Shown one piece after another: positions 1-57,911 of a stretch of 64,000 nucleotides of DNA. The notes beneath the pieces are model-generated. The model ran no database searches and was not told the DNA's origin. It saw only the letters and a list, made by a program, of their open reading frames with translations. How positions within the stretch are numbered: position 1 is the first letter of the stretch; each line of letters starts with the position of its first letter. The stretch covers positions 103,279 to 167,278 of IMG/VR virus record IMGVR_UViG_3300045988_176782, one strand, 5' to 3'. Source of the stretch: a virus. A program made the translations under genes and the position numbers.

Positions 1-891
1 GTGGAAAAAGAAGTAGGAGATAATTTTCTTCGTAGTAAAATCTATACTACAACCTCCGGAAAACACCTACTTTTTATTAAACTTCTCGCCGCCGCAACAA
101 TTACACTAAACATTAATGCTTCTTTTGTTGATTGGGGCGACGGCACACAAAGTACTACTCTATCCCATACCTATTCTACTGCCGGCGCATACACTATAAA
201 ATGTGATGGTACAACACTAAAGGCAAACTTCATTTCTCCTAACAGCATTTTATATGAGGCGCATTTTGCAAAAGGCTTAACCACCATACAACAAAATGCC
301 TTTTCCAATCAAACTTTTCTCCAAATTCTAACGCTGCCTTCTTCTTGCACCAATATCGCTGCGGAAAATGTATTTAACGGTTGCGTTAGTTTAAATGCGT
401 TAGTGTTTCCAGCTAATTGTTCTATTACAAAGTTAAATGCTGTAAAAGTTTAGAATATAATTTTGCCTTCTACAATTTCTGAACTACCTTCTTCCTACAA
501 CAATAGTAATCCCTCTCTAAAACAAATTACTTTGCCTGAAGGTATAAAGGAAATTCCCGCCGCGTCCTTTTTGTATAATTATGGTTTGGAGCAAATTCAT
601 TTACCTTCTTCTTTGGTTTCTATTGGCTCCAATGCCTTTAAAGGATGCGCGAATTTACAAAAATTGGAAATCCCGCAATCAATTACTACCTTAAGTGTTG
701 ATTGTTTTAGGGATTGCACTGGCTTACTTTCTATTAAATTAAAGTCTCCTACGCCTCCTATTCTCCAAAATGGGCTTGTGTTTGATAAGTCAGCTTGTCC
801 CATTGTTGTGCCTAAAGGGACACTTACTACCTACAAAAACGCAACAAATTGGATATTACTCCAAGACCGCTTAAAGGAGGCCGTGCAATGA
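1..891 (+). CDS. BspA-type leucine-rich-repeat protein, 5'-truncated at window edge; one in-frame TAG (451-453) read through
   Basis: ORFs 1-453 and 463-891 share one frame and are joined by TAG. Repeated units such as LPSSLVSIGSNAFKGCANLQKLEIPQSITTL are typical of BspA-like LRRs. Stop is TGA 889-891. Confidence 0.7.
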
Positions 892-1061
892 TACAACAAA
901 AAATATATTCAACAATTCCACTTATTTACGAAACTAAAAGTGACCGTAATATGTGGATTAAAAGCGAACTTTCTGGCGCACTTTATGTTATTGCCTATGA
1001 CCCTATTCCAAAAAAATATAGCGAAACGGAGGAACCAATAAATGAGTCAACGAGTGATTGA
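888..1061 (+). CDS. hypothetical small protein (57 aa)
   Basis: ATGA start/stop overlap with the upstream gene; intact ORF; no motif recognised. Confidence 0.45.
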   Translation: MIQQKIYSTIPLIYETKSDRNMWIKSELSGALYVIAYDPIPKKYSETEEPINESTSD

Positions 1062-1707
1062 CCTTGCTAAAAAGATTTCTCCTCCTCTCCCTTGGGGTAA
1101 TTAGGGTGAGGCAGGAGCGACAGATTTATTCTTAGATATAAGTGAATTTTATATGGCCGATCCGAATGGGAAAGCCATTGTTACTTTTACCCGTCAAGAT
1201 GGACATACTTACATACACAAATTTTAGTTAGAAAATAAAAACCTATTCATAACCTTAACTGCTACCGATACACAATTAGTGGGGAAATGTGAAGTTTAGA
1301 TTAATTGGCTTTCTAAAGGGAACCGATTAACTAAATCTTATAATTATAAAAGTTTTATTCTCCCCGCTGCGTCAGAAAAGCCCTTCCCATTAACAGAAGA
1401 AAGTGTTGCTGCTTTAGATAATTTGCAATCTTATATTGAAGATGCCAAAAAAATTCTTGAAGAAGCTAAACTTAAAAAACAAATTATCTTCTGTGATGAA
1501 CTTCCATTGGAAGGTTTGAGTGAGTTTGTCTATTTACTATCAAAAGATAAAGGATTATATTATTGGTCTGATGGCTGGTATTTGCTTAATCCTAAAAGTT
1601 CTGGCGGCGGTTTAGGAGATTATGATTTTGTTTTTGGCGGCAATGCTGAAGGTCCCACAAATGAAAGTCAGTGGATTGGAGGTACTGCTAGCCAAGTAGA
1701 CCCTTAA
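1042..1707 (+). CDS. virion/baseplate-like protein, three in-frame TAG (1102, 1225, 1297)
   Basis: ATG 1042 follows GGAGG. ORF 1423-1707 is in the same frame. The N-terminal WGN*GEAGATDLFLDI resembles the BppU-N type 'QGD' motif. Confidence 0.55.
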
Positions 1708-1727
1708 TTCTTCATTGAGGTGATATT

Positions 1728-7014: not shown

Positions 7015-8136
7015 ATGGCAGAAAAAATATTGCAAACAAGAATTTAGTTAAAATATGATACTGAAACCAACTGGAATAAAGCTACAAATTTTATTCCTAA
7101 AGCTGGCGAAATTATTTTATATTCTGATGGCGGCGGTACTGGTATTCCTAAAATGAAAGTTGGGGATGGAAGTACAAAAGTTGGAAATTTAAAATTTCTT
7201 AAAGGAGATGGAGAATATCTAACCTCTGTCCCTGCTGGGACTTGGACTTGGACTAATGGTACATCTGCAGGGCCTACTGCAAAATTAACTATTGACTCTA
7301 ATGCAACAACTATCGGCGCAATTCCAGCTGCTTCTTAGAGCCAAAGTGGTATAATTACAACAACTTCTCAAGTCATTTCTGGTAATAAAGCTATGTTAGG
7401 TAATTTTTCTGTTGGTAGCAGAACTGATGCAAATTTATATACTTTAAATATTAGTCGTAAAAGTGCTTCTGATGCATCTTCTATGCTGTTTTAGGGCTAT
7501 ATTAATGAAACCGCAAACAATTTTCAAATGTGCATTTATCGTTATGGAATAGATAATACCGAAGCTTGGCGTTTAATTCTAAATTTTTTAAATGGAACAA
7601 TTACAAGTGATTCTACTACTCCAATTACTCTTGGTTCTGCGGACATTCCTTGGACTGCTGTTTATGCTAAGAAATTTGTTGGTGGTGAAGCCACAACTTC
7701 CGTAGCAGGTTTGATGAGTGCAGAAGATAAAACTGCCCTTGATAGTTTAAGCGCTGTTTTTGGTGGCAGTTCTTCTAGTTCAGCTGGCACAAAAGGTCTT
7801 GTTCCTGCTCCTGCAAGTGGGCAACAAAATTATGTTTTACGTGGCAATGGCAGTTGGTCTCAATCTGTTGTTTCTACTACTGCGACACTAACTGCCAATG
7901 GCTGGTCTTCTTCTACACCACACACTCAAATCATTAGTGTTAGCGGTATTACTACGAATTCTAAGGTAGTAATTGATGTTAATTTAAGCGGACAAAGTTC
8001 TGACAATATTTCTAGTATTCTTGAAAATTGGAGTAATGTTAATGATATTCAAACTAATAGTGGCGCATTAACAGCTTATTGCTATGGTGATGTTCCTACA
8101 GTTAATTTGCCAATTAATATTATTGATATTAAGTGA
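7015..8136 (+). CDS. tail fibre paralogue, three in-frame TAG (7045, 7336, 7492)
   Basis: ATG 7015; ORFs 7153-7338 and 7528-8136 are in the same frame. N-terminus MAEKILQTRI*LKYDTETNWNKATNFIPKAGEI is paralogous to genes 1728, 4667 and 11208. Confidence 0.7.
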
Positions 8137-8145: not shown

Positions 8146-9261
8146 ATGGGACAATGTTTAATTACACGTCGTGGTGGAAAGACATCTGTAAATACTGACT
8201 TGCCTGCTTTAGATAATAATTATCCTCAAGATGTTATAATTTGGGGAGGAGAAGCAAATGCTTCTTTTAAAGTTGTAATTAGTCGGGCCGGAACCGACAC
8301 AAATTATGCCTATCAATGGTTTAAGGATGGTGCAGTAGTTGGGACTGCTGCAACATATTCAGAAACGACACCTACTGATTATGGTTCTCACACTATACAA
8401 TGCGTTATAACTACCTCTTAGGGAATTATATCTTCTCGTATTGCCACTTATATTGTAAAGAATCCTAATTTCTTATATTCATACACTGGTAATATAACTA
8501 CCGGTTCCAATAATACCTTCTATCTTACTACAAGTGGCACCTTAAATATTGCTAATTATGGTAAAAATGAAGATGGAATGTTTGATATTTTTCTCCTTGG
8601 TGGCGGTGCAGGTGGAGCTGTTACTGGCCTTGGTGGTGGCGGTTATTATACTATTACTTCAAAGAAGAAATTAGAAAAAAACACTAATTATCAGTTTATC
8701 ATCGGTGCAGGCGGCGCGGCTGGTTCTTTAACTGCGGCAGGCGGTAATGGCGGCTCAACTACGACGACTATTAGCAATATTAATGAAGGAGCGGGCGGAA
8801 AAGCTGGCAACAGAGTTGACGCATATATTAGTTGTACTTGCCAAAGTCCTAATGGCACAGCGGGTAATATTTACGAATATAGATATGGTTATAATCAAGA
8901 TACAGGTGTTTATACTATTACAAATCGCAGTTCTGTAGGGAGCGGAAGTCGGACTTTAAATTTATTATACCCATTAAAACAAGTTTCTGCTTTATATAAC
9001 GGCTCAGCTATTAATGTTTATCTCGCTCCAAATAAAATTGCTTATTGGTGTTATATTACAGAGCAAAAGACCATTTCTAGTAATAATGCAACTGCTGGTG
9101 CGGGCGGTTCAATAACATATATATTTGGAAGTAACTCTAATCTTCAGGTTAGCGGTCCAGGCGTGTTTAACAGCAATGCTGCTTTACGTTATGGCTAGGG
9201 CGGTAATAATAATATTTTAGCAGGTAAGAATGGACTAGCCGCGATTAGGTTTAGTTCATAA
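8146..9261 (+). CDS. Ig-like plus glycine-rich-domain tail protein, two in-frame TAG (8419, 9196)
   Basis: ORFs 8146-8421 and 8578-9198 are in the same frame and continue to TAA 9259-61. The YQWFKDGAVVG...HTIQCVIT Ig-like unit, GGGAGG tracts and ...GLAAIRFSS end parallel the next gene. Confidence 0.65.
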
Positions 9262-11207: not shown

Positions 11208-13403
11208 ATGGCAAAACAACTTAACGCTCGTGTTCAAACTAAACGAGACACAGAACAAAATTGGAATTAGGCAATTAACTTTATTCCTAAAGATGGCGAA
11301 ATTATTATTTATAAAGCTGATACAACCGCGGAAGAGCTTCAAACTTTTTATGAAGCATATTTGGCGGAAGTTGAAGCACTAAAATTAATTACCAATACTT
11401 CCTCAACCGAATATCAAGAACAATCTGTAAAAGTTTCTGAAGCTCTCGCCACCTATAATAATCGCTCTACACGAATTGTGCCGCGTTTTAAAGTAGGAAA
11501 TGGAGAAAAATATTTAAAAGATTTACCTTTTGTAAATGACCCATTTGTAATTAAGGAAGAAGGTAAAGGTCTTTCTGAATGTGATTATGATAAGCGTGCT
11601 CACGATATTATTGAGAACTTAAAGCAATTTGAAGATAATAATACCGGTGAAGTTTAGTATACTGACACAAAATATACTAACGGCGTCGGATTGGGGCTAT
11701 TAGAGGATACAATTCCTTCAACTTCTCAAACCCATACTTTCTACAATACTGGTATTGTTTCTATTCAAGAAAGCGCCATTAATGGTAACATTTCTGTAGC
11801 TCGTGGTAATTCCAGCACCGATACCACTGTAAGTGATATTGCAATTCACGGTTTAACTCAAACTGCTTATACTTTACCTGAAACTTTTGCTACAGCAAAA
11901 GCGGGCGAGCGCGCAATGACGGCATTGCAAAATGTCGCTACTCCTTTTGAACCAGTAAGCGTAAAAGATTTAACAATTCAAAAGTTGTTTGATTTAGGTT
12001 TCTTAAATACATCTTCTATTCCTGATTCTGCCGCATATTTACTTTCAGACGAAGGAAAAGCTAAAAAAATAGAAGAAATTCCAAGCTCCGAAAACGGTAG
12101 TATAAGTTATTTAATTTTTCTTGGCCTTTATCCATATGATGTCGCCGCACAAACAATGCTTCGTGGTACAGTTAATTTACAAAAAATGGATGAGGATGAC
12201 AATCTAATTAACCTCTATGCGCCTGTAATTGGATTGGGCAAAATGGCTTATATTGATGAAGTTAATGCTTCCAATATTAACTTGGATACTTTGCCTATTA
12301 TGACAGGTGTTAGGAAAGTTGAAACTACTGATGAAGATGGCAACATTACCGAAACAACTTATCTTTCTGGGCATAAAGGTTTGGTTCCGACTCCAACAGA
12401 AAACGATTATGGCAAAGTTCTATTTAGCGATGGCTCTTGGCGACCAATTACAGATATTGCGATTAACATTGGTGATATTCCTTCTGGTTTAGCAACCGAT
12501 AATGAAGGTAAAATTTATAATAATGGTATATTAAATTTAAGTAGTGAAGAAAATATTATAAACTTTACTCAACTTCAATTAGATGAAGCTACTCAAAAAT
12601 ATCAATTAGTTTCCTATCAACTTGAAATTCCCGCAGCGGTATCTTGGACTTCAACACTTACGAGTGGAGAACAAATTGGCACTTTAACTATTAATAACGC
12701 TGAAAATATTTTATATGCTCCGGTTGCATCCGACAGAGTGGCAAAAGCAGGAGATACAATGACCGGACGATTAATTTCTCCTGCGATAGAAATTCGCAAA
12801 GACGCTTGGCCATAGCTTCTATTAAGCAATGCTTCAGGTGGTCCTCGTGGAATGATGTATGTAGCAACCAGTGATGGTAGTGTGGGTAATTTATATCTTA
12901 GAGCATATTCTTCTGACACAGAATATTCTCAAGCTTATTTAACAACTTCTGGAACTTTTTCCGCACCAAGTGTTGAAGGCGCAGTCTTTAACGATTACGC
13001 AGAATACCGTGCTTTAAAAGACCCAATTGAATCCTACGAACCAGGTTATTGTATGACCTGCAATAGAGATGGAAAACTTTTCCGCACTTCTTCTCGTATG
13101 CAACATTGTGAAGGCATTACCTCTGATACTTTTGGTTTCTCTATTGGCCGCACAGATGAAGCTACTGTTCCTCTTGCAGTTGCAGGTCGCGTACTAGTAT
13201 ATACTTCTGAAGACCCCTCTACTTACTATACTGGTCAAGCTGTTTGTGCTAGTAGGGGTGGCCGCGTTTCTAAAATGACAGATTCTGAAATTGCTCAAAA
13301 TCCTGACCGTATTGTTGGAATAGTAAGTGAAGTTCCTACATATGAAACTTGGGGAACAAATAATGTTAAAGTTAATGGTAGAATTTGGATTACAGTAAAA
13401 TAA
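11208..13403 (+). CDS. tail spike/fibre with Mtd_N-type N-terminus and Peptidase_G2-like C-terminal autoprocessing/chaperone domain; three in-frame TAG (11268, 11655, 12813)
   Basis: ORFs 11361-11657, 11691-12815 and 12852-13403 are all in the frame of ATG 11208. The C-terminus FNDYAEYRAL...TVPLAVAGRVLVYT...GQAVCAS...IVGIVSEVP is like the phi29 pre-neck appendage C-terminal domain. Confidence 0.7.
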
Positions 13404-13452: not shown

Positions 13453-14910
13453 ATGAAACAAGTAAATATTATTGTAAAGTCTTCTGTGCAAGAATAGGAA
13501 AAATTTATTGGAACTTATCCAGAAAAAAACCTATTAACAATTGATGCAGAAGGACAAATTATTCAAGATGATGTAATTACTCACGGTATAAAAATTGGTG
13601 ATGGCGAAACCAAATGGGATGATTTACCTTTCTTGAAGTTGCCGCCTGATATAGCGAATGATTGGAAAGTTTTAGCAGAAAGCGCGACCAATGGCCAACT
13701 TGTGACCTTACCTGATTTGAATTTTGCATATTTATTAATTGACGCAGAAAAACTAGATAACGCACAGTATACTGAAATTGTAAATCAAATTGCTTCTCGT
13801 AATATTGGTTTATATTTAGCCGCGGCAGAATCAGAAAAATCATTATACCCTGATGGAAGTCAAATTCAAAATTATGCTCTCACAATCAACACAGACGAAG
13901 ATAAACCATTCATAACTCAAGACCCAAATGGTGCAACTGCCACAAATAGTATAGTAGATAGGTTTATTTTTAATACTTCAAATGAATCCAAGTATAATAA
14001 AATTGAAGTGAAATTAAAAGATAGTGAAGCGCAAGAAAAAATTGAACAGCTTAAAGCTACGGTAGATGATAAATTTACTACTTTTTCTGAGCAAACTAAA
14101 AAAGATATTGAACAAGTAAAAAAAGATATTAAAGAATCCACCTATATTTTTGGTAGCAATAACATCCCCGAAGGAACCACAAGTGGCCTAATTCCTTTTC
14201 CTGAAGTAGAAAAACGAACAAAAGATTACTTCCTTTCTGGCGCAGGGACTTGGGAACAAATCATTCTTACCGCTGATAAAGTAAAATACACCACTCCGAC
14301 TGGTAGCCAAACATATGTTAAAGATGTGTTAGATGATTTATTGAGCGGTGCTAGTCTAAGTTTTGCTCAAGGTAGCGCGACAGACCGTCAGGTATTTATT
14401 GTTGGCGCGACACAAGAAGGTTTGAATAATAAAAAAACTACATTAAAATATAGTCCAAGTGTGTATCTTGACTGTAAGGATAATGTACTATATGGCGGCG
14501 CTTGGAATGATATTGCTGAATTTAGGGAGTCTTTTGATTCTTATGTGGCAGGAAACTGTGTATATGAAACTGCACGAGGCAAATTGATGATTTCTGATAA
14601 GCGTATGATTCCAAATAGTTATATTGTATCTGACACTTATGGTTATGCTTTGGGTGAGAAAGATATTGATACAGTTCCTGTTACTATTGCCGGTAGAGTT
14701 TTGGCTTATTATTTAGAAGATAAAAATGAACTAAAAATTGGTGATGCTGTATGCAGCGGTCCAAATGGTGCAGTTTGTAAGATGAAGAAATGGGAAAAAA
14801 TTTTACATCCTGAATGTATTATTGGCTATGTAAGTGAAATTCCTCAATATGAGATTTGGGGCCAACATAATACTTCTGTGCGCAATCGTATTTGGATTAA
14901 GGTGAAGTAA
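13453..14910 (+). CDS. second tail spike/fibre with Peptidase_G2-like C-terminal domain; one in-frame TAG (13495)
   Basis: GGAGG RBS and ATG 13453, same frame as ORF 13633-14910. The C-terminus WNDIAEFRES...TVPVTIAGRVLAYY...GDAVCSGPNG...IIGYVSEIP is paralogous to 11208-13403. Confidence 0.7.
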
Positions 14911-15604: not shown

Positions 15605-15613
15605 AAGAAAAGA

Positions 15614-41626: not shown

Positions 41627-41655
41627 ATAGAAAATTAAGAAAGGAAGTTAAATCT

Positions 41656-41781
41656 ATGGAATGGATTTTAGGAATAGGTTGTTTGGCTTTTTTGTTTGTG
41701 TTGTATAAGCCGAATATTGAAAGAATGATTTACAGCATTAAAGATTGGATTGAGAAAGGAAATAAAGAAAATGACATTTGA
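41656..41781 (+). CDS. small membrane protein (41 aa)
   Basis: AAGGAAG RBS; MEWILGIGCLAFLFVLY. Confidence 0.4.
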   Translation: MEWILGIGCLAFLFVLYKPNIERMIYSIKDWIEKGNKENDI

Positions 41782-42220: not shown

Positions 42221-42236
42221 AGAAAGGAAGAGAAAA

Positions 42237-43565: not shown

Positions 43566-44182
43566 CCTTTAGTTCGCTTTTTACTGGCTCTCTTCTTGCT
43601 GGTATTTTAATCGCTTTAGGAAATATGATGTATGTATGTATTGAGAATAAGATTGTTGCCGCGTTCTTATTCTCAATTGCATTATGCTTTATTAGAATCA
43701 AAGAACTAAATCTATTTACTGGTTCCATTGGGAAACTTTATTTTGATAAAAATTTAAAGATATACCATTTAATTTTTATCCTTTTGTTTAATATCACCGG
43801 CACAGCTATAATGCGTTTAGTGCCAAATTTTCCAGTGGATGTATATGCAATTGCAAGAATGAAATTCCTTGATGTTAGCTTATTGCGAGTTGGTTTTTAT
43901 TCTATTTTTTGCGGTATGTTAATGGTTATTGCTACAGATTCGCTAACTCCTATGTGGCTAACTATTATGTGTGTAGCTGGTTTTTTGCTTGCTGGTTTTA
44001 GACACAGTATTGCTGATAGTTGGTATTTTTGGTATTTACCGTTGGCAAACTACAAGACCGGATTAAAAGTTCTCGGTATTGAAATTTTAGGTAATTTCAT
44101 TGGCGGTTCTTTCATTGCTATTTTTATTAAAGAAAATTTACAAGACAAAGCAAAACCCCTATTAAATATAAAGAATCTTTAA
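43562..44182 (+). CDS. formate/nitrite-transporter (FNT)-like membrane protein, short
   Basis: ELNLFTGS and GFRHSIADSWYF resemble FocA ELFTGN / GFEHSIANM. Multiple TM segments. Confidence 0.45.
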   Translation: MTFSSLFTGSLLAGILIALGNMMYVCIENKIVAAFLFSIALCFIRIKELNLFTGSIGKLYFDKNLKIYHLIFILLFNITGTAIMRLVPNFPVDVYAIARMKFLDVSLLRVGFYSIFCGMLMVIATDSLTPMWLTIMCVAGFLLAGFRHSIADSWYFWYLPLANYKTGLKVLGIEILGNFIGGSFIAIFIKENLQDKAKPLLNIKNL

Positions 44183-44199
44183 TACTTTATTTAGAGAAG

Positions 44200-44230
44200 A
44201 AGACCGAGTTAATGCTCGGTCTTTTATTTA
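44200..44230 (+). terminator. intrinsic terminator
   Basis: AAGACCGAG/CTCGGTCTT hairpin plus T-rich tail. Confidence 0.75.
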
Positions 44231-44244
44231 TAAGGGAGATAGTT

Positions 44245-44439
44245 ATGGATGTTATTACTTATGCTTTATTAAGAAAAATTGAGCAAAGTGGCAGTAGCGG
44301 CGCGCCGGGAAAAAGTGCTTACGAGATTGCCAAAGAGCACGGTTTTTCTGGAACAGAACAAGAATGGTTAGAGAGCTTAAAAGCGGAATCTGACTTAGTT
44401 TTTGCTACTGATGATGACATCAGAGCTATTGTAAAATAA
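44245..44439 (+). CDS. small tail-fibre-motif protein
   Basis: GAPGKSAYEIAKEHGFSGTEQEWLESLKA motif is common in phage fibres. GGGAG RBS. Confidence 0.5.
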   Translation: MDVITYALLRKIEQSGSSGAPGKSAYEIAKEHGFSGTEQEWLESLKAESDLVFATDDDIRAIVK

Positions 44440-44453
44440 AGGAGGTTTTTAAT

Positions 44454-45257
44454 ATGGCAATGATTAAGAACGAAAATGATGGAAAAGTTCTTTTAACTAA
44501 TCATTTAGCCTTATTTTATAATTTAATTAAAGACAAATTCATTAGTCGTGATGAAATTGCAACTACTCAAGATGTTGAAAAATTATTCGCTACCTTACAA
44601 CAACTTAATACTTATGAAAAATTAAATGAAAAATTCCAAGAAGGCGGCGAAATTAAACTAACAAACAATATTATTATTCCCGCTGCGAATACAACAGAAG
44701 AAAGTCGCACAAAAATTACCAAAGATGCTTTTGTAGATTTTGGTAATAATATGGTTTTAGTTCCTGCTGAATTAGGAGGCTCTGATTCCAGTAATTGGGC
44801 AGGCTTATATGCCGATGGAGATAAAATTACTGTTATCCTAAATGGCAATGAAGGCGGTATCGCCACTGCTACAGCGACTGAAAACTTAGATTGTCCTTAT
44901 TGCGTAGGCGTATTAAATGGTGCTACTGTTATTATTAATGGTGGTCATTATAAAGGTTCCGGTAGTGCAATATATGTTCGCAATGGTTCTTGTATTATCA
45001 ATGGCGGTTTCTTTGAAGCCTATCCTTGGCAGAATGGAGTAAATGGTGAACTTAAGCCTTGGACTTTAAATTGTCAAAACGATACTTATAAGAAAGGCCT
45101 AGCTCATATTATTGTCCGCGGCGGCACCTATGTTAATTTTGACCCATCTAATCCTAAGACAGATGATGCAGAAACTTATGTTGATGCAAATTATCAGGTG
45201 GTTTCTGAAACTAAAACCAATGGAGATATTTGGTATTCTGTTGTAAAGAAAAATTGA
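44454..45257 (+). CDS. hypothetical protein (beta-helix-like?)
   Basis: AAGGAGG RBS; repeats INGGHYKG / INGGFFEA / VRGGTYVN. Confidence 0.5.
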   Translation: MAMIKNENDGKVLLTNHLALFYNLIKDKFISRDEIATTQDVEKLFATLQQLNTYEKLNEKFQEGGEIKLTNNIIIPAANTTEESRTKITKDAFVDFGNNMVLVPAELGGSDSSNWAGLYADGDKITVILNGNEGGIATATATENLDCPYCVGVLNGATVIINGGHYKGSGSAIYVRNGSCIINGGFFEAYPWQNGVNGELKPWTLNCQNDTYKKGLAHIIVRGGTYVNFDPSNPKTDDAETYVDANYQVVSETKTNGDIWYSVVKKN

Positions 45258-45282
45258 CTTTTATAAAAAATTCTTTTATAAT
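45254..45282 (+). promoter_or_regulatory. promoter TTGACT-N17-TATAAT
   Basis: -35 at 45254-59, -10 at 45277-82. Confidence 0.7.
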
Positions 45283-45313
45283 ATATACATAAGATGAAGA
45301 AAGGAAAGACGTT

Positions 45314-45631
45314 ATGAAGTTTTTATTATATGATTTGCAAACAGCTTTTGAAGCTGGCGTATCAGAGCATCCACAAGAACAGATGGGTAAATTATTTAAA
45401 GTAATTCATTGTGTTCCGCAATCAATTGGTGAATGCTGGTGGTTTTGTGTTGAAGATTATAATATAAAGCAACTTCCTCCTTATCTTACAGAAATGCGAC
45501 CATACAATCTTACTTATTGGCGAGATGGTTGTTATAAAACTTGCTCTTTTTGGCAAAAAACTAAAGGAGCTTGTTGCCATGGCGGCTGGGACTGTATAAA
45601 TAATTATAAAGAGGTAGAATCCGATGTTTGA
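45314..45631 (+). CDS. Cys/Trp-rich hypothetical protein
   Basis: Intact ORF, GAAAGGAAAG RBS. Confidence 0.5.
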   Translation: MKFLLYDLQTAFEAGVSEHPQEQMGKLFKVIHCVPQSIGECWWFCVEDYNIKQLPPYLTEMRPYNLTYWRDGCYKTCSFWQKTKGACCHGGWDCINNYKEVESDV

Positions 45632-45761
45632 TTTGGATGATTTGTATAAGATTACTTGTGAAGAATATTACAACTATATGGGATTTGATACATATGCTCC
45701 TGATTACGAAGGCGGTTCTACTGAAGAATTTGAATTAAAATTTGACGAAAACGAAAAATAA
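45624..45761 (+). CDS. small acidic protein (45 aa)
   Basis: ATG overlaps the upstream stop; ends inside the next promoter. Confidence 0.35.
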   Translation: MFDLDDLYKITCEEYYNYMGFDTYAPDYEGGSTEEFELKFDENEK

Positions 45762-45770
45762 ATATATAAT
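45742..45770 (+). promoter_or_regulatory. promoter TTGACG-N17-TATAAT driving a tRNA-like transcript
   Basis: -35 at 45742-47, -10 at 45765-70. Confidence 0.65.
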
Positions 45771-45901
45771 ATATTCAGAAAGTGAGAAACGGACAAGGCT
45801 TTGGCAAGTGAAGGAACTTTGATGTAGGAGATGAAAGTCGTTTGAACTAATAAAAAGTTCCTAATAAATTGGTGGGATGCGAGTGGTTTCTTACTTCTTA
45901 T

Positions 45902-46022
45902 GTGGGGTTAGTGTAATGGCAGCACGTTGGTTATAAGTGAGTCTTGGCAAAGAGTCATCAGCAATTATTCTTTCTTGCAGGGAGCCCGAAGGACAGGGTT
46001 CAATTCCCTTGACCCTACACCA
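45902..46022 (+). ncRNA. tRNA-like gene with oversized anticodon/variable region (about 121 nt), encoded CCA
   Basis: Acceptor GTGGGGT/ACCCTAC plus A plus CCA. U8, D arm GTGT-AATGGCA-GCAC. T-arm-like CAGGG-TTCAATTC-CCTTG. About 45 extra nt between the D and T arms; anticodon not assignable. Confidence 0.4.
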
Positions 46023-46067
46023 ACAATCATTTTGCAATTAAAGTAAAAGAAGAAAGGAAATAAGAAT

Positions 46068-46274
46068 ATGTTTGAGTATAAAGTTCGTTTTCGCAATGAA
46101 GATGGTGATATTAGTTTGTCTCATGGTGTAATCGGCGCGAAGTCTTACTCTAAAGCAGCAAAAGAAATTATAGAATATTTCGGTACAGAAATTATCACTA
46201 TGGAACTTTCTGAATTAATGAATCCTTTAGAAGAAGATGGCCTGAAAGGTTTTATGGAGGAAAATTTTGAATGA
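46068..46274 (+). CDS. hypothetical protein
   Basis: Intact ORF with RBS. Confidence 0.5.
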   Translation: MFEYKVRFRNEDGDISLSHGVIGAKSYSKAAKEIIEYFGTEIITMELSELMNPLEEDGLKGFMEENFE

Positions 46275-46603
46275 AAGTAGCAATTCTTGCAGGCAGTCAG
46301 TCTTTTTCTTATGACCAAGGAATATATGACTTTACCATTGAAGAAGTAAATAATATTGAAGAAGCTAATGAAATCGGCGCAGAAATGTCTCGTGATGTAA
46401 TTGATAGTTATCATTGTATTTCTTCTTTAATTGAAGATGCTGCTCATGACGCACAAGAAAATGGTGAAGATTATGATGAAGCATATGAAGATGCTTTACT
46501 ACAAGAACTTTTTTGGGAAGTTTTTGAGTTAAAGGATGACGCGCCAAAATCAATTAAAATTGATGAAGATTATGAAGATTTTCTTAAGAAATGGAGAAAA
46601 TAA
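46271..46603 (+). CDS. highly acidic protein
   Basis: ATGA overlap. Asp/Glu-rich (DAQENGEDYDEAYEDA..., DEDYEDF). Confidence 0.5.
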   Translation: MKVAILAGSQSFSYDQGIYDFTIEEVNNIEEANEIGAEMSRDVIDSYHCISSLIEDAAHDAQENGEDYDEAYEDALLQELFWEVFELKDDAPKSIKIDEDYEDFLKKWRK

Positions 46604-47164
46604 ATGACGCCTAAAGAATTGGGTCAATTATTTGTTGATTTAATAGAAATTGATGATAATGGTTGTTCTCCTCAAATTTATATGAAAGATTTAGTTGAAA
46701 TTGAACCAGAATTTCGTACTACTAATGGTTCTCAATGGAGCCGAGCTAATGGTTGGCTAGGAAAACAGTATTTAATTCAAAAAACTTATAAATCTGGACG
46801 AGTTGATTCAATTCAATTAGTAGGCAAAAATACTTCAAATGAAAATCATTCTGTTCCTGCAGAAGTATATGCTTATTATAAAGGAAAGCCTTGTGTTTTC
46901 ACAGGAACAACAAACAATATTGAAATTGACCATAAAAATGCTCGTTATAATAATTCAGAATATACAATGGCCGATTTTCAGCCTGTATGCAAAATGATGA
47001 ATGATATTAAACGAGAAATTTGTAAAAAATGTCGTCTAAACAAACTTAGGCCAAAAGCATCTTCTCTTGGCTTTTTAAAAGATTTTATTTCTGGCGACGA
47101 AAAATCTGAAACTTGTCAAGGATGTTATTATTATGACCCAATTGAATTTAGAAGAAACCTATAA
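46604..47164 (+). CDS. HNH/beta-beta-alpha-Me nuclease-like protein (candidate restriction endonuclease)
   Basis: NNIEIDHKNARYNN plus Cys pairs CKKC...CQGC. Overlaps the methyltransferase gene. Confidence 0.45.
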   Translation: MTPKELGQLFVDLIEIDDNGCSPQIYMKDLVEIEPEFRTTNGSQWSRANGWLGKQYLIQKTYKSGRVDSIQLVGKNTSNENHSVPAEVYAYYKGKPCVFTGTTNNIEIDHKNARYNNSEYTMADFQPVCKMMNDIKREICKKCRLNKLRPKASSLGFLKDFISGDEKSETCQGCYYYDPIEFRRNL

Positions 47165-47861
47165 AAATCAAAGCTGTTTTGAGTTCCTTCCTACTATTCC
47201 TTCTAAATCCATTAATCTTATTCTAATTGACCCGCCATATGAAATTTCTCGCGCCACTAATTTTCAAAGTGGAGAAGAAACTGGAACTGATACTGACCGT
47301 TTTCGTATCTCTATGGATTTTGGCGATTGGGATAAGAATTTTTTTGGCTTAGAAAAGGTTTTTAAAGAAGCACAGCGGATTTTGGTTGATGGCGGCACAA
47401 TGATTTGTTTTTATGATTTATGGAAAATTGAAACAATTAAACAATATTATGAAAATAATAAGTTTAAACAAATTCGCTTTCTTGAATGGATTAAAACCAA
47501 TCCTGTGCCAATTAATAGCAAAATCAACTATTTAACTAACACTCGTGAAGTTGCGGTTTTGGGAATAAAAAAATCTAAACCAACTTTTAATAGTTCATAT
47601 GATAAGGGAATTTATGAATATCCTATTTGTCATGAAAAAGGCCGCTTCCATCCCACACAAAAGCCATTAGAGTTAATGGAAGCTTTGATTCTAAAACATT
47701 CTAATGAAGGCGACACTGTTTTAGATTGTTTTGCAGGAAGTGGCACAACTGGTGTTGCTGCGATTAAAAACAATCGGAAATTTATTGGTTGTGAAATTTC
47801 TCCAGAATATTATTCTCAATCTTTGGAACGACTAAAAAATTTGACAAAAATGAAAAATTAA
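47133..47861 (+). CDS. DNA methyltransferase, beta-class (N6A or N4C)
   Basis: LILIDPPYE (motif IV) near the N-terminus, and VLDCFAGSGTTGVAA (motif I) near the C-terminus. Confidence 0.8.
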   Translation: MTQLNLEETYKNQSCFEFLPTIPSKSINLILIDPPYEISRATNFQSGEETGTDTDRFRISMDFGDWDKNFFGLEKVFKEAQRILVDGGTMICFYDLWKIETIKQYYENNKFKQIRFLEWIKTNPVPINSKINYLTNTREVAVLGIKKSKPTFNSSYDKGIYEYPICHEKGRFHPTQKPLELMEALILKHSNEGDTVLDCFAGSGTTGVAAIKNNRKFIGCEISPEYYSQSLERLKNLTKMKN

Positions 47862-51386: not shown

Positions 51387-52691
51387 ATGAAAAAGTCTTA
51401 TTTAGATTTAATTGCAACTTTATATTCAGAACCTGATTTACGAAGTTGTAGAAACATTACCTTATAGGTTTGCGATGATTGCTGTTTAAAATGTTCATAT
51501 TGCTATCAAATTCATAAAAGCCACAATTATATGACAAAAGAGACTGCAAAAGCCATTATTGATTTACTATTTAGAATGTATGATGAAGATAAGCCAGACG
51601 CATTTATCAATCATACAACTCATGGTATAATTCTTGATTTTATCGGTGGCGAGCCTCTAATGAACGTTGAAATTATGGAATTTGCTACTGAATACTTTAT
51701 TGACCAATGTTTGCAAAAAAATCACGAGTGGCTTTATAATTTTCGCACAAGTTTTGCAACAAATGGTATTCTTTATTTTGAACCAAAAGTATAGGCATAT
51801 TTACAAAAATTTCACAATTTTATTTCTATGACCGTTAGTATTGATGGCCCAAAAGAAATTCATGATATTTGCCGTCTTGACCGTGATGGTAATGGTAGTT
51901 TTGAACGAGCAAGTACCGCGGCGCACCATTATTGGGAATATTATGGAAAAGATGTCGGGGGACGAGATGAAACTAAAGTTACCATTGCTCCAGACAATTT
52001 ATCTCAATTAAATAAAATTGTAGATTATTTCTTAAATGAAGGCGTTACAGTGATTAATGCCAATCCAGTTTATGAAGTAGAATGGACAGTAGAATAGGCA
52101 AAAATATATTATAATGAATTAAAAAAATTAGCAAATAAATTGTTATTAAATTTAGAAATTAAATGTAGTATTTTTGATAGCCATTAGAACGTCCCCTTGC
52201 CTATTAGTGATAATACGAACTGGTGCGGCGGTGATGGACATATGTTAGCTTTTGACCCGCACGGAAATGCTTATCCTTGTTTGAGATATATGGAAAGCTC
52301 TTTAGGTGGAGAAGTTGAGCCTTTAATTATTGGTGATACTAATGGTATTTATAATACGCCAGAAAGTCAAGAAATTAGGTGTAAACTTTGTACATTAACT
52401 CGTAGTAATTAGTCTACGGAAGAATGTACGCATTGTTCAATCGCCGCGGGCTGCTCTTGGTGCAGTGCTTGGAATTATCAGCAATTTAAAAAGATCGGTA
52501 AGCGTAGCACGAATATTTGTTGGATGCACCGAGCCGCAGCATTGGCCAATGTCTATTATTGGAATCTTAAATACCGTTTAGAAGAAAATGAAAAAAGATT
52601 CCCAATTTATCTTGAACAAAAATATGCTTTGTAGATAATACCCTCTGAAGAATATGATTTGTTGCTTTCACTTTCTCAATGGGGAGAGTGA
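51387..52691 (+). CDS. radical SAM/SPASM peptide maturase (CXXX-repeat-target type candidate); six in-frame TAG
   Basis: ORFs 51531-51794, 51828-52097 and 52197-52412 are all in the frame of ATG 51387. ITL*VCDDCCLKCSYCYQ (CxxxCxxC). C-terminal CGGDG...PCLRY...CTHCSIAAGCSWCSAWN is SPASM-like. Confidence 0.75.
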
Positions 52692-52696: not shown

Positions 52697-53239
52697 ATGA
52701 GCTGGCTAAAAGGAGATAAAATTACAGCAGAGGATTTCATTGCTATTAAAGAAAAAGTTAAAAACGAATTAGCTCGGCGAAATGCAGAAGGAAGTGTAGC
52801 AAACTATGCAACGAGCTATACTGATATGCCTGTATAGAAAGGGAAAATAAAAGTTAGCCATATTACAGAAATTGTTGAACCATTGAGTCATATTAATAAT
52901 GTAGATTATGATTTAAATAAACCAATTACAATAAAATCTTTAACTACAATTCAAACAATGTTAAATAGTTTAACCACAGCAGAAAAGGCTGCATCAACAT
53001 TAGAAGCAACCGGGTGTAAAGCTTCCTGCACTGGTTTATGTTATACATCTTGTTCAGAAACGTGTCGTTCTTGTGGAGATAGTTGCAGTCAAAATTGTGA
53101 TACTGGATGCAATTGGACTTGTAAAGGGTCATGCCGCAATACTTGTTCTGGACGCTGCAAAGGTAGCTGTGGAACTACTTGCCAATTGGGCTGTTCTAAC
53201 AATTGCAAAGGAAGCAGTGTAGGTGGCTGTTCTGCATAA
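52697..53239 (+). CDS. CXXX-repeat protein: tail-fibre-like N-domain plus C-terminal run of 18 Cys; one in-frame TAG (52835)
   Basis: MSWLKGDKITAEDFIAIKEKVKNEL N-terminus. C-terminus CKASCTGLCYTSCSETCRSCGDSCSQNCDTGCNWTCKGSCRNTCSGRCKGSCGTTCQLGCSNNC (15 of 17 spacings are exactly CxxxC). Confidence 0.7.
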
Positions 53240-55575: not shown

Positions 55576-55601
55576 GAGAGCTTAGGCTCTCTTATTTTTT
55601 T
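55574..55601 (+). terminator. intrinsic terminator
   Basis: AAGAGAGC/GCTCTCTT hairpin plus a T-run. Confidence 0.75.
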
Positions 55602-55616
55602 AGGTGGTGAAACTTT

Positions 55617-57911
55617 ATGAGTGGAGGATTTTCTGGCGTTGGCGGCTATGCTGTTATTCTAACTCCAGAAGGCGCATCGCTATATGGCGGCGGAAATGCA
55701 AGTTTTGAAGCACTTGTCACTGCTGCAACAGGCCAAATAGATATTGAGGCAACAACATAGGAAATTCTTGCTATTTTATATTAGCAATATGAAGAACAAA
55801 CAATAATAGAAAGGAATATACGGGCAGCTTATGGCAATGAAACTATTGAAAATATTATAAAATCCTTACGCGGAGAAACTTCTAAAGTAATGAGCGGCAC
55901 ACCAGAAATGATACAAAATCTTAAGCAAAATTTGGCCGACTGGCAGAACAAAGAAAAGAGTCGTAAAGAAACAATCGCCCAAATTCGTGGAGATTCTGAA
56001 CATTATTATCAAGTTTATAATACTTTAGTAGACGGATTAGTTGCCTTAGCTAATCAATTAACTAATATGGATGAAAAAGCATTACGAACTGGTCCTGGTA
56101 TCATTGAAACATTAATTCATAAATGGGAAAATTCTTCCAGTCAATTAGAGCAAGAAGCCGCGAAAATGGCGCAATCTTTTTCCAAATTAGATTTAGATAA
56201 TGAATCATTTATTAAAGATATGAATAGTACCTTTGACAAAATTAGAGAGACAATTAACAAAGAAGACATGGCCTATTCTTATGACCCTACTTCTAATACC
56301 ACTGAACTTAAAAATCCAGAATTAACCGCGGCTATTTAGGAATTACTTGCCTTTCAAGAAAAAATCCGCAGTGATATAGATAAAAAAAGTAAACGCAGTA
56401 AAAAGAAAAAACAAAGACTTCTTGCTATGTGGAATAATATTAAATTTGCCAATTGGAATGCAAGAACCAGTAAACTTGGTCAGGCATTAAATCAAAAAGG
56501 TAAAAACGACCCAATGATAATTTTAAATAGTTTAAGGCAAAAAGTCTATGATGTGGCTAAATAGCAATTAGAGGAAAACACTGGACGAAAAGCCACAGAT
56601 AAAGAGCAACAAAAACTTCGTTCTTCAATTACAGAAATTCAAACTAAAGCTGTCAATGAGCTAAGTGAACAAACTAAAGACTATGCAGTACGGCAACTTA
56701 TTTCACTTGTATTTGGCGACCAAGCACAAATTGGTCCATTAAAAGGACTACTTGCCGAGCAATTTAAAACTGCAATGGCTAAATCCTATATACAAGATGT
56801 AAATAATTCAGTTCAGCAAGCCTATCAATAGGCCATTGGTGCAGTATGGGAAGAAATTATAACAAAGCTTTGGCTAACAGGGAAAGATACAAGAAATGTA
56901 AAAATATTAGTACCAGGCCCTGAAGACCTTAAAGACATAGTATAGTCTGATGATGATTTAAGAATAGGAACAGATATTAATGCTTTTGATAATGAAAATA
57001 AACGGTATGGCACGCAACATCGTTTAAAGCGAACGAATGAAGAAATTTTTAAAGGCTATCAAAAAAATAAGAATAAAAAAGATGCCCTTAGCGTTTCATA
57101 GCGCGAACTCAAAACTTGGTTAAAGTCAATTAGCGGGAAAAAAGATTTACCAAACTTACAAGCAAGTTTAGACAACTATTTTAATGAAAATATTATTGAC
57201 CTCCCTTCTATTCAAAAACAATTTGATAAAGTAGATAGTGTTCAAGCGGCGACAGTGGGAAAGAATCCATATTACATTGCTTTCTCAGAAAAGCAACGTA
57301 CTGCAGGTGGTATGACTGGTTCTATTGGTTTAATGGGCGATGATATTAGCAGATTTAATAATATGAAAGCTTCTGGAACTAATTTATATAGTTCTTTAGA
57401 TTTAATTAGTTAGAATGGTTCAGACAAATCTATTCCTACTGCACAAATAATGTTCGCAATGCTGAATCAATCTACTGCTTCTATATATCATGGTGATGCT
57501 GGTGTTCAGGAGTAGATAAGAAATTATATTAAAATGCAACTTGCGGCAAAAGTATTAGATTTGGCATTTAATAGAGTAAATTTTTTCTTCAATCAGCAAC
57601 AAAAAGGTATTGATATGAATCAAAAAAATACTCTATTTGTTATGAATGTTAATAATCTTTATGTCTCTTCCACGGCCATATTACGCGGCCTTATTGAAAA
57701 ATTTCAAAATTATCAAGACGTAATTGCTGACATCGTTTATGTTAATGTAGAATTTGATACTGCCCACCAAGCTTATCCCCTATGGATGACCGCGATTGCA
57801 AGTCAAGGTGGCGGCGATGCAAATCAAGCAGCCCGTTGGGGATTTGTTGCTAATCAAGTTGCTGCTAATACTAAATTGAATGTTTCTCTCAGCATTGCAA
57901 ATTTAATGTAG
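55617..57911 (+). CDS. large (764 aa) virion-type protein, nine in-frame TAG
   Basis: ATG 55617; ORFs 55890-56339 and 57534-57911 are in the same frame, and the frame stays open throughout if TAG is read as sense. Confidence 0.6.

What the first reader, a model, noticed from the sequence alone, without database searches (positions are those of the whole stretch)
1..57911. TAG is a sense codon (best fit Gln) in late-type genes, while long early blocks are TAG-free
- About 49 in-frame TAGs sit between same-frame ORF fragments in 16 genes. Examples are 7015-8136, 11208-13403, 37122-37754, 51387-52691 and 55617-57911. The fragments lack their own RBS or start, and the protein domains continue across the TAG.
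- Where TAG falls in a motif I recognise, the expected residue is Gln:
  - SpoIID ALKAQAVAARTY versus ACKS*AVASRTF (37263-65).
  - GMSQ.GA versus LS*IGA (37578-80).
  - The PG_binding_1 FQ column versus NI*K (37042-44).
  - Fibre N-domain RIQLRRDT versus RI*LKYDT (7045-47).
- All genes end in TAA or TGA.
- The blocks 14912-33309, 41443-47861 and 57989-64000 contain no in-frame TAG.
- This pattern fits the published idea that amber recoding delays late and lysis gene expression until a suppressor tRNA is available.
Basis: partly seen in the sequence, partly recalled or inferred. Interest (0 to 1): 0.75.

Follow-up and report, generated by a model that had tools for sequence, protein, structure and literature searches.

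The report
Phage reads TAG stop as glutamine
This stretch of a roughly 165-kb phage genome uses the stop codon TAG as a glutamine codon in its tail-fibre, lysis and a few other genes but never in its early genes, which is a known phage habit; the less ordinary part is its own TAG-reading tRNA, which has an extra arm and sits beside a mobile endonuclease gene.

Summary
I count about 50 in-frame TAGs in 16 genes. No gene ends in TAG (64 TAA, 29 TGA). Three long blocks have no in-frame TAG.

The TAGs are translated:
- Pfam domains run across them.
- Substitutions against two 93%-identical relatives pile up at third codon positions on both sides of every TAG.
- Only 1 of 46 TAGs is followed by a start codon with a ribosome-binding site.

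TAG means Gln. At 35 sites where the window and the close relatives differ and one has TAG, the other has CAA or CAG at 26. Gln is the maximum-likelihood identity by more than 170 log units, and it also wins against more distant relatives.

TAG-free blocks coincide with near-perfect host-type promoters. The tail-fibre and lysis modules have none, so the early/late split has independent support.

This is the published "code 15" phage pattern, so the window is a new member of a known kind.

Beyond the finding, the window encodes a tRNA(CUA) at 39464-39553 behind a perfect promoter. It has a Gln-type acceptor end plus a long variable arm. It belongs to a family found only in viral contigs and is repeatedly followed by a TAG-containing GIY-YIG endonuclease gene. 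In two sister phages the same locus holds different alleles, one split by a group I intron.

The parts
1..891 (+). Partial gene in the tail-fibre module; 1 in-frame TAG (451)
   Evidence: The TAG is conserved in both relatives. Third-position substitution bias on both sides.
1042..1707 (+). Gene with 3 in-frame TAGs (1102, 1225, 1297)
   Evidence: Relatives carry a fourth TAG where the window has CAG (1669).
7015..8136 (+). Tail-fibre-like gene with 3 TAGs (7045, 7336, 7492)
   Evidence: PHROG tail hits. In distant loci the window TAGs of this gene align mostly to Gln (9 Gln, 5 Leu, 1 Ala, 1 Cys).
8146..9261 (+). Tail protein gene with 2 TAGs (8419, 9196)
11208..13403 (+). Large fibre gene with 3 TAGs (11268, 11655, 12813)
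   Evidence: The relative has TAG where the window has CAA (12594).
13453..14910 (+). Fibre gene with 1 TAG (13495)
34843..35061 (-). Small - strand gene behind an AGGAGG ribosome-binding site; 1 TAG (34926)
34994..35413 (-). - strand gene with 3 TAGs (35050, 35227, 35368)
   Evidence: GGGAGGTGG ribosome-binding site. TAGs conserved in both relatives. The homologue in L031 has Gln at two of the TAG columns.
36466..37119 (+). PG_binding_1 lysis-cassette gene with 2 TAGs (36985, 37042)
   Evidence: Pfam hit. 36985 is CAG in relative 173030.
37122..37754 (+). SpoIID-like lytic enzyme gene with 5 TAGs (37263, 37386, 37569, 37578, 37623)
   Evidence: Pfam SpoIID, E = 3e-14, spanning TAGs. PDB alignment.
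37763..38562 (+). NlpC/P60 + SH3 endolysin gene with 2 TAGs (38056, 38071). A 5-nt insertion at 37823-37827 shifts its frame relative to the relatives.
38486..38878 (+). Membrane protein gene (holin-like position) with 2 TAGs (38528, 38870)
39302..39330 (+). Perfect TTGACA-17-TATAAT promoter about 135 nt upstream of the suppressor tRNA
39464..39553 (+). tRNA with anticodon CUA, 90 nt. It has a long variable arm, U1-A72, G2.U71, G3-C70 and A73.
   Evidence: ARAGORN, Rfam tRNA 58.9 bits, fold, family covariation.
39701..40537 (+). GIY-YIG homing-endonuclease gene with 5 TAGs against 5 CAA/CAG. It is absent from both close relatives.
   Evidence: Pfam. The same tRNA-endonuclease arrangement occurs in other lineages.
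51387..52691 (+). Radical-SAM/SPASM-type enzyme gene with 6 TAGs
   Evidence: All six are CAA/CAG in relative 173030.
52697..53239 (+). Cys-rich protein gene with 1 TAG (52835)
55617..57926 (+). 769-aa gene of unknown function with 10 TAGs
14912..33309 (+). TAG-free block: 39 genes, 208 Gln codons, 0 TAG. It holds nucleotide and RNA metabolism genes and seven consensus promoters.
41443..47861 (+). TAG-free block holding RNA ligase and DNA methyltransferase genes and consensus promoters
57989..64000 (+). TAG-free block behind a perfect promoter at 57929-57957

Best explanation
The window comes from a large tailed phage. Its sister contigs are 165-168 kb. Its closest cultured relatives are Bacillus Tsamsa/PBC2-like phages, at 40% identity in one protein.

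In this phage UAG is decoded as glutamine in a subset of genes, the 'genetic code 15' pattern already described for gut and other phages.

**Shown**
- UAG is translated, and it stands for Gln.
- UAG is never used as a stop.
- UAG is absent from the transcription units that carry host-type consensus promoters. It is concentrated in the lysis cassette, where TAG makes up 22% of Gln positions (TAG plus CAA/CAG), in tail-fibre genes (8%), in a homing-endonuclease gene (50%) and in the 51387-57926 cluster (17%).

**Inferred**
- The decoder is the phage's own tRNA(CUA) at 39464-39553, transcribed by host RNA polymerase from a perfect promoter.
- Its weak 1-72 pair and its G2, G3-C70 and G10 match the glutamine identity set used by GlnRS, and by misacylating GluRS plus the amidotransferase. 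It would therefore be charged with Gln despite its extra arm.
- Early genes avoid TAG because they must be translated while host RF1 still terminates at UAG.
- TAG-bearing genes become translatable only once the suppressor has accumulated. That holds back lysis and virion proteins, and also the endonuclease.
For: **TAG is translated**
- Domains span the TAGs.
- Third-position substitution excess appears on both sides of every TAG.
- Downstream fragments have no independent starts.
- 57 TAG-TAG pairs are conserved against two relatives.

**TAG is Gln**
- 26 of 35 variable TAG sites pair with CAA or CAG.
- Gln is the likelihood winner at two divergence levels.
- Two conserved SpoIID Gln positions are TAG in the window.

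**Distribution**
- Stops are 64 TAA, 29 TGA and 0 TAG. Block heterogeneity has p = 3e-13.
- The same genes are TAG-free in both relatives.
- Consensus promoters mark the TAG-free units and are absent from the tail-fibre and lysis modules.

**The tRNA**
- tRNA(CUA) is detected by ARAGORN and Rfam.
- A perfect promoter lies upstream.
- The cloverleaf is supported by covariation across 11 family members: 90.8% of cells paired, and 0 of 500 shuffles reach the observed score.
- The 1-72 pair is A-U, U-A, G.U or a mismatch, never G-C. This matches the tRNA-Gln(UUG/CUG) genes of related phages, whereas all their Ser, Leu and Tyr tRNAs have G1-C72.
- The Gln identity rules are taken from PMC9976931.

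**Published model:**
Against: - No protein or RNA data exist. Timing is inferred from promoters only.
- The suppressor has an early-type promoter, so any delay must come from accumulation or competition with RF1, not from late transcription of the tRNA.
- Four tail-fibre-module genes carry no TAG, and a TAG-rich operon sits behind an early-type promoter. The partition is therefore not a clean early/late one.
- The tRNA has a long variable arm, which in bacteria marks Ser, Leu and Tyr tRNAs. In this window its discriminator is A73 rather than G73.
- Only 64 kb of about 165 kb was seen, so a second, conventional tRNA-Gln(CUA) may exist elsewhere in the genome.
- Sister phage 173030 has only an aberrant tRNA-like element at this locus, yet it uses TAG heavily.
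- Three of five TAG columns in SpoIID align to Glu, Gly and Asp in solved structures.
Confidence: 0.8

Rival explanations
1. TAG is an ordinary stop. The same-frame fragments are separate small genes, pseudogenes or assembly errors.
For: Under table 11 the fragments are legal ORFs, which is why standard gene callers split them.
Against: - Pfam domains cross the TAGs.
- The coding-type substitution pattern continues in frame across every TAG.
- Fragments lack starts and ribosome-binding sites.
- TAG interchanges with CAA/CAG in relatives.
- No gene ends in TAG.
Confidence: 0.01
2. TAG is sense but stands for another residue. It would be Ser, Leu or Tyr, as the class-II shape of the tRNA suggests, or pyrrolysine, as ARAGORN's label suggests.
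For: The tRNA(CUA) has a long variable arm. ARAGORN prints 'tRNA-Pyl' for any CUA anticodon.
Against: - No Ser, Leu or Tyr partner occurs at the 35 variable sites in close relatives. Lys occurs at 2 sites.
- The log-likelihood gap to Gln exceeds 170 units.
- The tRNA has an ordinary D loop with GG, an ordinary T loop and a weak 1-72 pair. It is not Pyl-like, and it differs from the G1-C72 Ser, Leu and Tyr tRNAs of the same phages.
- None of the 26 ORFs of 250 aa or more that were scanned is a pyl gene or an aminoacyl-tRNA synthetase gene.
Confidence: 0.04
3. TAG = Gln, but the extra-arm tRNA in the window is not the main decoder. A conventional tRNA-Gln(CUA) elsewhere in the genome, or a host factor, does the work, and the extra-arm tRNA has another role.
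For: - Only 64 kb of about 165 kb was examined.
- Locus L042 carries both a 90-nt and a 76-nt tRNA(CUA).
- Sister phage 173030 has only an aberrant element at this locus.
- Distant relatives use 75-76-nt tRNA(CUA).
Against: - The extra-arm family has Gln-type acceptor features and strong covariation.
- It was found in 12 TAG-using phage loci from 11 metagenome datasets.
- It has a perfect promoter.
Confidence: 0.2
4. The TAG pattern is not a lysis timer. It is a by-product: a mobile suppressor-plus-endonuclease cassette entered an AT-rich phage with few TAG stops, and CAG/CAA-to-TAG changes then drifted into genes expressed after the tRNA. Alternatively, recoding serves to sabotage host or competitor translation.
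For: - The tRNA-endonuclease cassette recurs in unrelated lineages, and the locus is polymorphic.
- TAG presence varies between close relatives. The radical-SAM gene has 6, 4 and 0 TAGs.
- Some late genes have none.
- The anti-host idea is raised in PMC7886860.
Against: - TAG use is highest in the lysis cassette, as in other recoded phage clades.
- 57 TAGs are conserved across relatives.
- This rival concerns purpose, not mechanism, and is compatible with the best explanation.
Confidence: 0.25

Closest known systems
TAG-to-Gln recoded phages ('genetic code 15': crAss-like, Lak, Garnet, Amethyst, Topaz, Sapphire clades; phAss-1 group)
   Same: - In-frame TAG in structural and lysis genes, with standard-code early genes.
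- A phage-encoded tRNA(CUA).
- TAG aligning to Gln.
- A homing-endonuclease gene that is recoded.
- Infection of standard-code Firmicutes or Bacteroidetes.

Sources: 10.1101/2021.08.26.457843, PMC9523058, PMC10607447 and PMC7886860.
   Different: - No nucleotide match to any GenBank phage, so this is a different lineage. The nearest cultured phages are Bacillus Tsamsa/PBC2-like, at 40% in one protein.
- The suppressor has a long variable arm.
- No release-factor or synthetase gene was seen in the window.
Classical amber suppressors that insert Gln: supE tRNA-Gln(CUA), and tRNA-Tyr or tRNA-Trp amber suppressors misacylated by GlnRS (my own knowledge of the E. coli genetics literature, not checked here)
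   Same: - CUA anticodon.
- A weak first base pair and G2/G3 in the acceptor stem as Gln determinants.
- A tRNA with a long variable arm can be a Gln acceptor once its acceptor end is changed.
   Different: - Those are single-mutation laboratory or host alleles.
- This is a naturally maintained phage gene family with its own promoter.
- No cellular counterpart was found in one genome per species.
Free-standing homing endonucleases in phage tRNA regions (T4 SegB, a GIY-YIG enzyme in the T4 tRNA cluster; my own knowledge) and group I introns in bacterial tRNA anticodon loops
   Same: - A GIY-YIG gene directly downstream of a tRNA gene.
- Allelic replacement of the tRNA gene between near-identical phages.
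- In one sister phage, a group I intron sits in the anticodon loop.
   Different: - Here the linked tRNA is the code-changing suppressor.
- The endonuclease gene needs that suppressor, because it has 5 TAGs.
- Cleavage specificity is unknown.

Membership tests
Phage with TAG reassigned to Gln (code 15 type) | In-frame TAG inside conserved protein-coding genes, with the coding signal continuing across it | tested here: met
Phage with TAG reassigned to Gln (code 15 type) | TAG columns correspond to Gln in homologues | tested here: met
   - 26 of 35 variable sites pair with CAA/CAG.
- Gln is the likelihood winner.
- 2 of 5 SpoIID TAG columns align to Gln in PDB structures.
Phage with TAG reassigned to Gln (code 15 type) | TAG is not used as a terminator | tested here: met
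   93 genes: 64 TAA, 29 TGA, 0 TAG. Two TAGs lie 2 and 5 codons before a TAA (38870, 57909). The second is CAA in a relative.
Phage with TAG reassigned to Gln (code 15 type) | Phage-encoded suppressor tRNA with anticodon CUA | tested here: met
   39464-39553.
Phage with TAG reassigned to Gln (code 15 type) | Recoding concentrated in late, structural and lysis genes | tested here: met
   Exceptions are four TAG-free tail-module genes and a TAG-rich operon behind an early-type promoter.
Phage with TAG reassigned to Gln (code 15 type) | Gln found at TAG positions in peptides; host uses the standard code | not testable with these tools
   No proteome is available and the host is not identified.
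tRNA-Gln (bacterial identity set) | Weak 1-72 pair (U1-A72 or A1-U72) with G2 and G3-C70 | tested here: met
   - Window: U1-A72, G2.U71, G3-C70.
- Family: A-U in 6, U-A in 1, G.U in 1, mismatch in 3, and no G-C.
- Rule taken from PMC9976931.
tRNA-Gln (bacterial identity set) | Discriminator G73 | tested here: not met
   The window tRNA has A73. Nine of the other ten family members have G73.
tRNA-Gln (bacterial identity set) | Class I shape with a short variable loop | tested here: not met
   The variable region is 22 nt and contains a hairpin. For this reason I say it works like a Gln suppressor, not that it is a canonical tRNA-Gln.
tRNA-Gln (bacterial identity set) | Charged with Gln | not testable with these tools
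   Needs an aminoacylation assay or tRNA sequencing.
Class II tRNAs (Ser, Leu, Tyr) | Long variable arm together with G1-C72, a 3-bp D stem and the isotype's discriminator base | tested here: not met
   A long arm is present. However, the 1-72 pair is never G-C and the D stem has 4 bp. No Ser, Leu or Tyr appears at the variable TAG sites.
tRNA-Pyl | Small D loop, 6-bp anticodon stem, 3-nt variable loop, and pyl genes | tested here: not met
   No pyl genes were found among the scanned ORFs.

The most novel reading that the evidence does not exclude
The amber decoder of this phage group is a previously undescribed kind of tRNA. It has a glutamine-type acceptor end and a CUA anticodon. It also carries a conserved extra arm whose loop always contains UGA.

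This tRNA travels as a mobile 'code-change cassette' with a GIY-YIG homing endonuclease whose own translation needs the suppressor. Endonuclease pressure would explain why three 93%-identical phages carry three different alleles at one locus:
- a plain tRNA plus the endonuclease gene (the window);
- a tRNA split by a group I intron in the anticodon loop;
- an aberrant GC-rich tRNA-like element.

Three full-text searches found no description of an extra-arm Gln suppressor. That is an absence in the held library only.
Probability: 0.4. Interest if true: 0.7.

Novelty: new member of a known kind. Interest (0 to 1): 0.42.

Why it matters
**The finding as given.** It adds one more lineage, a large phage distantly related to Bacillus Tsamsa/PBC2-like phages, to the phages that read TAG as Gln.
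- Practically, table 11 shatters at least 16 of its genes, so it must be annotated with table 15.
- The coincidence of TAG-free genes with host-type consensus promoters is a clean, sequence-only confirmation of the early/late logic proposed for such phages.

**The side story.** It could matter more.
- An extra-arm tRNA charged with Gln would be a natural example of a class-II-shaped tRNA with a class-I identity. That is of interest for tRNA identity rules and for orthogonal suppressor design.
- A suppressor linked to a homing endonuclease suggests how code change spreads between phages.

Tried and rejected
- **ORF coverage under different codes.** Not discriminating, because overlapping and opposite-strand ORFs inflate all recodings.
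- **GenBank phage searches** with the tRNA, a 19-kb block and the radical-SAM gene. No match.
- **My automatic gene caller.** It mis-set several starts and picked two spurious ORFs. I removed 27747-28574(-) and 53578-53946 after substitution-periodicity tests. 'ORF' 40804-41307(-) is in fact the ROOL RNA.
- **PDB alignment of the radical-SAM protein.** TAG columns fall in poorly conserved positions (for example His, Lys), so distant homologues are weak evidence for residue identity.
- **Sequence similarity of the suppressor to other tRNAs in 64 loci.** It gave no isotype. The family clusters only with itself.
- **Search for more copies of the aberrant L029 element.** It found only the same contig.
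- **Two scans of one genome per bacterial or archaeal species** for the family's anticodon arm, with and without a fixed anticodon. Seven chance matches, none a tRNA.
- **PHROG searches** of the 769-aa TAG-rich protein and several small genes. No function found.
- **Tools not run.** I did not use the large protein-database searches or structure prediction, because the codon-exchange evidence had already settled the question.


Full report
**1. What the window is**

The window is 64 kb at 36% GC, with genes almost all on the + strand.
- It has no nucleotide match in GenBank phages.
- IMG/VR holds two sister contigs from one metagenome, 3300045988_170892 (165.6 kb) and 3300045988_173030 (168.2 kb). 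They cover most of the window at about 93% amino-acid identity.
- A DUF2828 protein (54088-55575) is 40% identical to proteins of the 165-kb Bacillus phages Tsamsa, PBC2 and Thrax.
- The lysis genes are of the Gram-positive type: SpoIID, NlpC/P60 with SH3, and PG_binding_1.
- A Bacillota host is therefore likely, but this is not shown.

**2. Checking the observation**

With only TAA and TGA as stops, long + strand ORFs appear that contain internal TAGs.

After curating starts and removing false ORFs, 14 + strand genes hold 46 in-frame TAGs. Two - strand genes with strong ribosome-binding sites add four more: 34994-35413 and 34843-35061.

Two ORFs were rejected:
- ORF 53578-53946, because substitutions against the relatives show no third-position excess.
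- The - strand ORF 27747-28574, because the excess lies in the + frame 27900-28538.

All 93 accepted genes end in TAA (64) or TGA (29). The TAG-free genes also have no TAG close to their ends, so TAG is not used as a terminator.

Out-of-frame TAG occurs there at the normal density. Heterogeneity across seven blocks gives chi-square 70.9, p = 3e-13.

**3. TAG is translated**

- Pfam domains run across TAGs in the SpoIID, NlpC/P60, GIY-YIG, radical-SAM and PG_binding_1 proteins.
- For every fragment between TAGs, differences from the two relatives concentrate at the third codon position of the same frame, on both sides of each TAG.
- Only 1 of 46 TAGs is followed within 30 codons by an in-frame start with a Shine-Dalgarno-like motif. 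That is no more than after ordinary Gln codons, 5 of 172.
- 57 TAG-TAG codon pairs are conserved against the two relatives.

**4. TAG means glutamine**

I mapped codons between the window and the two relatives.
- There are 35 sites where one genome has TAG and another has a sense codon. The sense codon is CAA or CAG at 26.
- The other nine are Pro, Gly, Ala, Thr, Lys, Arg, Gly, Lys and Asp. None is Ser, Leu or Tyr.
- All six TAGs of the radical-SAM gene are CAA or CAG in contig 173030.

Using the substitution frequencies seen in the same alignments, the log-likelihood of the TAG partners is -87 for Gln and -260 for the runner-up, Lys. The two relatives are not independent, so the site count is the fairer number.

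I repeated the test by tblastn against 56 further phage loci at about 25-78% identity. Gln partners are the commonest (57), and Gln again has the best likelihood, -697 against -803.

The other three in that gene align to Glu, Gly and Asp. The motif argument alone would not have carried the claim. The codon exchanges do.

**5. Early and late genes**

PHROG and Pfam assign the genes as follows:

| Region | Content |
|---|---|
| 1-14910 | Tail fibres |
| 36466-38878 | Lysis |
| TAG-free blocks | Radical-SAM enzyme, polynucleotide kinase, phosphoesterase, adenylosuccinate-synthetase-like enzyme, RNA ligase, DNA methyltransferase, nucleotidyltransferase and transporters |

As an independent marker I scanned for TTGACA-(16-18)-TATAAT with at most one mismatch.
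- There are 17 on the + strand and 3 on the - strand, against roughly 0.4 per strand expected by a rough uniform-composition estimate of my own.
- Thirteen of the 17 lie in, or directly in front of, the TAG-free blocks.
- None lies in 1-14910 or 35531-39279.
- The other four precede the suppressor tRNA (39302), the ROOL RNA (40782), the operon 51114-53239 (51064) and gene 54088 (53998).

So TAG-free genes are those that host RNA polymerase can transcribe at once.

The partition is not perfect.
- Tail-module genes 1728-6523 and 9272-10315 have no TAG. Their homologues in more distant phages do. These genes have a higher GC content, 40-55%.
- The TAG-rich radical-SAM operon sits behind a perfect early-type promoter. 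There a translational gate would act on an early transcript.

**6. The decoder**

ARAGORN and Rfam find a tRNA with anticodon CUA at 39464-39553. It lies just downstream of the lysis cassette and 135 nt downstream of a perfect consensus promoter.

ARAGORN's 'Pyl' label only reflects the anticodon. The tRNA is 90 nt long because it has a 22-nt variable region with a 6-bp hairpin. In bacteria that shape belongs to Ser, Leu and Tyr tRNAs, which seemed to clash with Gln.

A pattern scan of IMG/VR found 12 more such tRNAs, 88-93 nt long, in contigs from 11 metagenome datasets. The flanking loci also use in-frame TAG.

In an alignment of 11 distinct members:
- The cloverleaf is strongly supported: 90.8% of cells paired, 15 pairs with double changes, and 0 of 500 shuffles as good.
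- The base of the extra arm is conserved, and its loop always contains UGA.
- The 1-72 pair is A-U, U-A, G.U or a mismatch, never G-C.
- G2 is invariant, G3-C70 is usual and G10 is invariant.
- The discriminator is G in nine of the other ten members. The window's is A.

The ordinary tRNA-Gln(UUG/CUG) genes of related phage loci have the same A1-U72 or U1-A72 plus G73. All their Ser, Leu and Tyr tRNAs begin G1-C72.

A weak 1-72 pair is the feature read by GlnRS, by misacylating GluRS and by the Glu-tRNA-Gln amidotransferase (PMC9976931).

My inference is that this is a Gln-accepting suppressor with an added arm. It works like supE but is not a canonical tRNA-Gln. Charging has not been tested.

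No cellular tRNA with this anticodon arm was found in one genome per species. Three literature searches found no description of such a suppressor.

None of the 26 window ORFs of 250 aa or more that were scanned is a release factor or an aminoacyl-tRNA synthetase.

**7. A polymorphic, probably mobile locus**

The flanks of the tRNA locus are conserved in both sister phages, but the content differs.

| Genome | Content of the locus |
|---|---|
| Window | tRNA followed by a GIY-YIG homing-endonuclease gene (39701-40537), which has 5 TAGs against 5 CAA/CAG |
| Contig 170892 | An orthologous tRNA(CUA) split after CUCU in the anticodon loop by a 253-nt group I intron (Rfam 45.9 bits, E = 1e-10, just under the gathering score). 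Spliced in silico, it is a 91-nt extra-arm tRNA(CUA). |
| Contig 173030 | An 86-nt GC-rich element. ARAGORN accepts it as tRNA(CUA) only at a relaxed threshold and Rfam does not. I found it nowhere else. |

The arrangement 'extra-arm tRNA(CUA) then TAG-containing GIY-YIG gene' recurs in two other lineages: L034/L040/L042 and L041.

This looks like a suppressor that spreads with a homing endonuclease whose own translation depends on it. That is an inference. A recoded intron endonuclease has been noted before in TGA-recoded phages.

**8. Comparison with what is known, and verdict**

The following are all published for phages:
- Reassignment of TAG to Gln.
- Its bias to late and lysis genes.
- Phage-encoded suppressors.
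- The timing hypothesis.

Sources are 10.1101/2021.08.26.457843, PMC9523058 with proteomic proof, PMC7886860 and PMC10607447.

The finding is real and correctly interpreted, and it is a new member of a known kind.

The parts that go beyond the literature I could search are:
- the extra-arm Gln-type suppressor family;
- its link to an endonuclease gene;
- the three-allele locus.

They raise the interest somewhat but rest on sequence inference only.

Noticed in passing
window 40831-41406 (+): A full-length ROOL RNA (Rfam RF03087, 295.8 bits against a gathering score of 99.1) directly behind a perfect TTGACA-17-TATAAT promoter at 40782-40810. The - strand 'ORF' 40804-41307 is therefore not a gene.
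   Followed up: partly
window 40562-40598 (+): An abiF RNA motif (RF03085, 49.9 bits, gathering score 37) between the endonuclease gene and the ROOL RNA. The same motif is conserved in both sister contigs.
   Followed up: no
L030 13342-13594 (IMG/VR 3300045988_170892): A group I intron (Rfam 45.9 bits, E = 1e-10) inside the anticodon loop of the sister phage's tRNA(CUA). Removing it in silico gives a 91-nt tRNA that ARAGORN accepts.
   Followed up: partly
L029 11642-11731 (IMG/VR 3300045988_173030): At the same locus, an 86-nt element with 65% GC. It has a CUCUAAA loop, a 6-bp anticodon stem, a tiny D loop and a non-standard T loop. It is found only in this contig, and its function is unclear although that phage uses TAG heavily.
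   Followed up: partly
window 48625-48740 (+) and 49714-49787 (+): Two Rfam tRNA hits that ARAGORN missed. The first has a 50-nt insert in place of the anticodon loop, too short for a group I intron. The second looks like tRNA-Leu(AAG).
   Followed up: no
window 37823-37827: A 5-nt insertion (GTATC) relative to both sister phages shifts the frame of the NlpC/P60 endolysin gene after about 20 codons. It is either a real frameshift or an assembly error.
   Followed up: partly
window 29442-30575 (+): An adenylosuccinate-synthetase-like gene that hits the PHROG named '2-aminooxy adenylosuccinate synthetase' (E = 2e-51). This family includes PurZ of phages with 2-aminoadenine DNA (my own knowledge), so the DNA may be modified.
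   Followed up: no
window 51114-53239 (+): A radical-SAM/SPASM-type enzyme gene followed by a gene for a very Cys-rich 180-aa protein. The best solved relative of the enzyme is 5wgg. This looks like a peptide or protein cross-linking pair. The enzyme and its upstream small gene are also found in the L034/L040/L042 lineage next to the suppressor tRNA.
   Followed up: no
window 57989-59236 (+): One ORF combines a nucleoside 2-deoxyribosyltransferase-like N-terminal half with a GIY-YIG endonuclease-like part. It has no TAG, unlike the endonuclease gene next to the tRNA.
   Followed up: no
window 43562-44182 and 59262-60512 (+): Membrane transporter genes in early blocks: one formate/nitrite-transporter-like and one xanthine/uracil permease (Pfam E = 3e-51). 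These are unusual cargo for a phage.
   Followed up: no
window 9272-10315 (+): This gene has 54.8% GC in a 36% GC genome and carries no TAG. It was probably acquired recently from elsewhere.
   Followed up: no
window 19434-20777, 42237-43565, 60593-61405: Polynucleotide kinase, phosphoesterase, RNA ligase and nucleotidyltransferase genes. They look like a tRNA-repair set, next to 13-15 tRNA genes.
   Followed up: no
L032 4060-4131 (IMG/VR 3300045988_149268): A related 166-kb contig carries a tRNA with anticodon UUA, an ochre type, beside its extra-arm tRNA(CUA).
   Followed up: no
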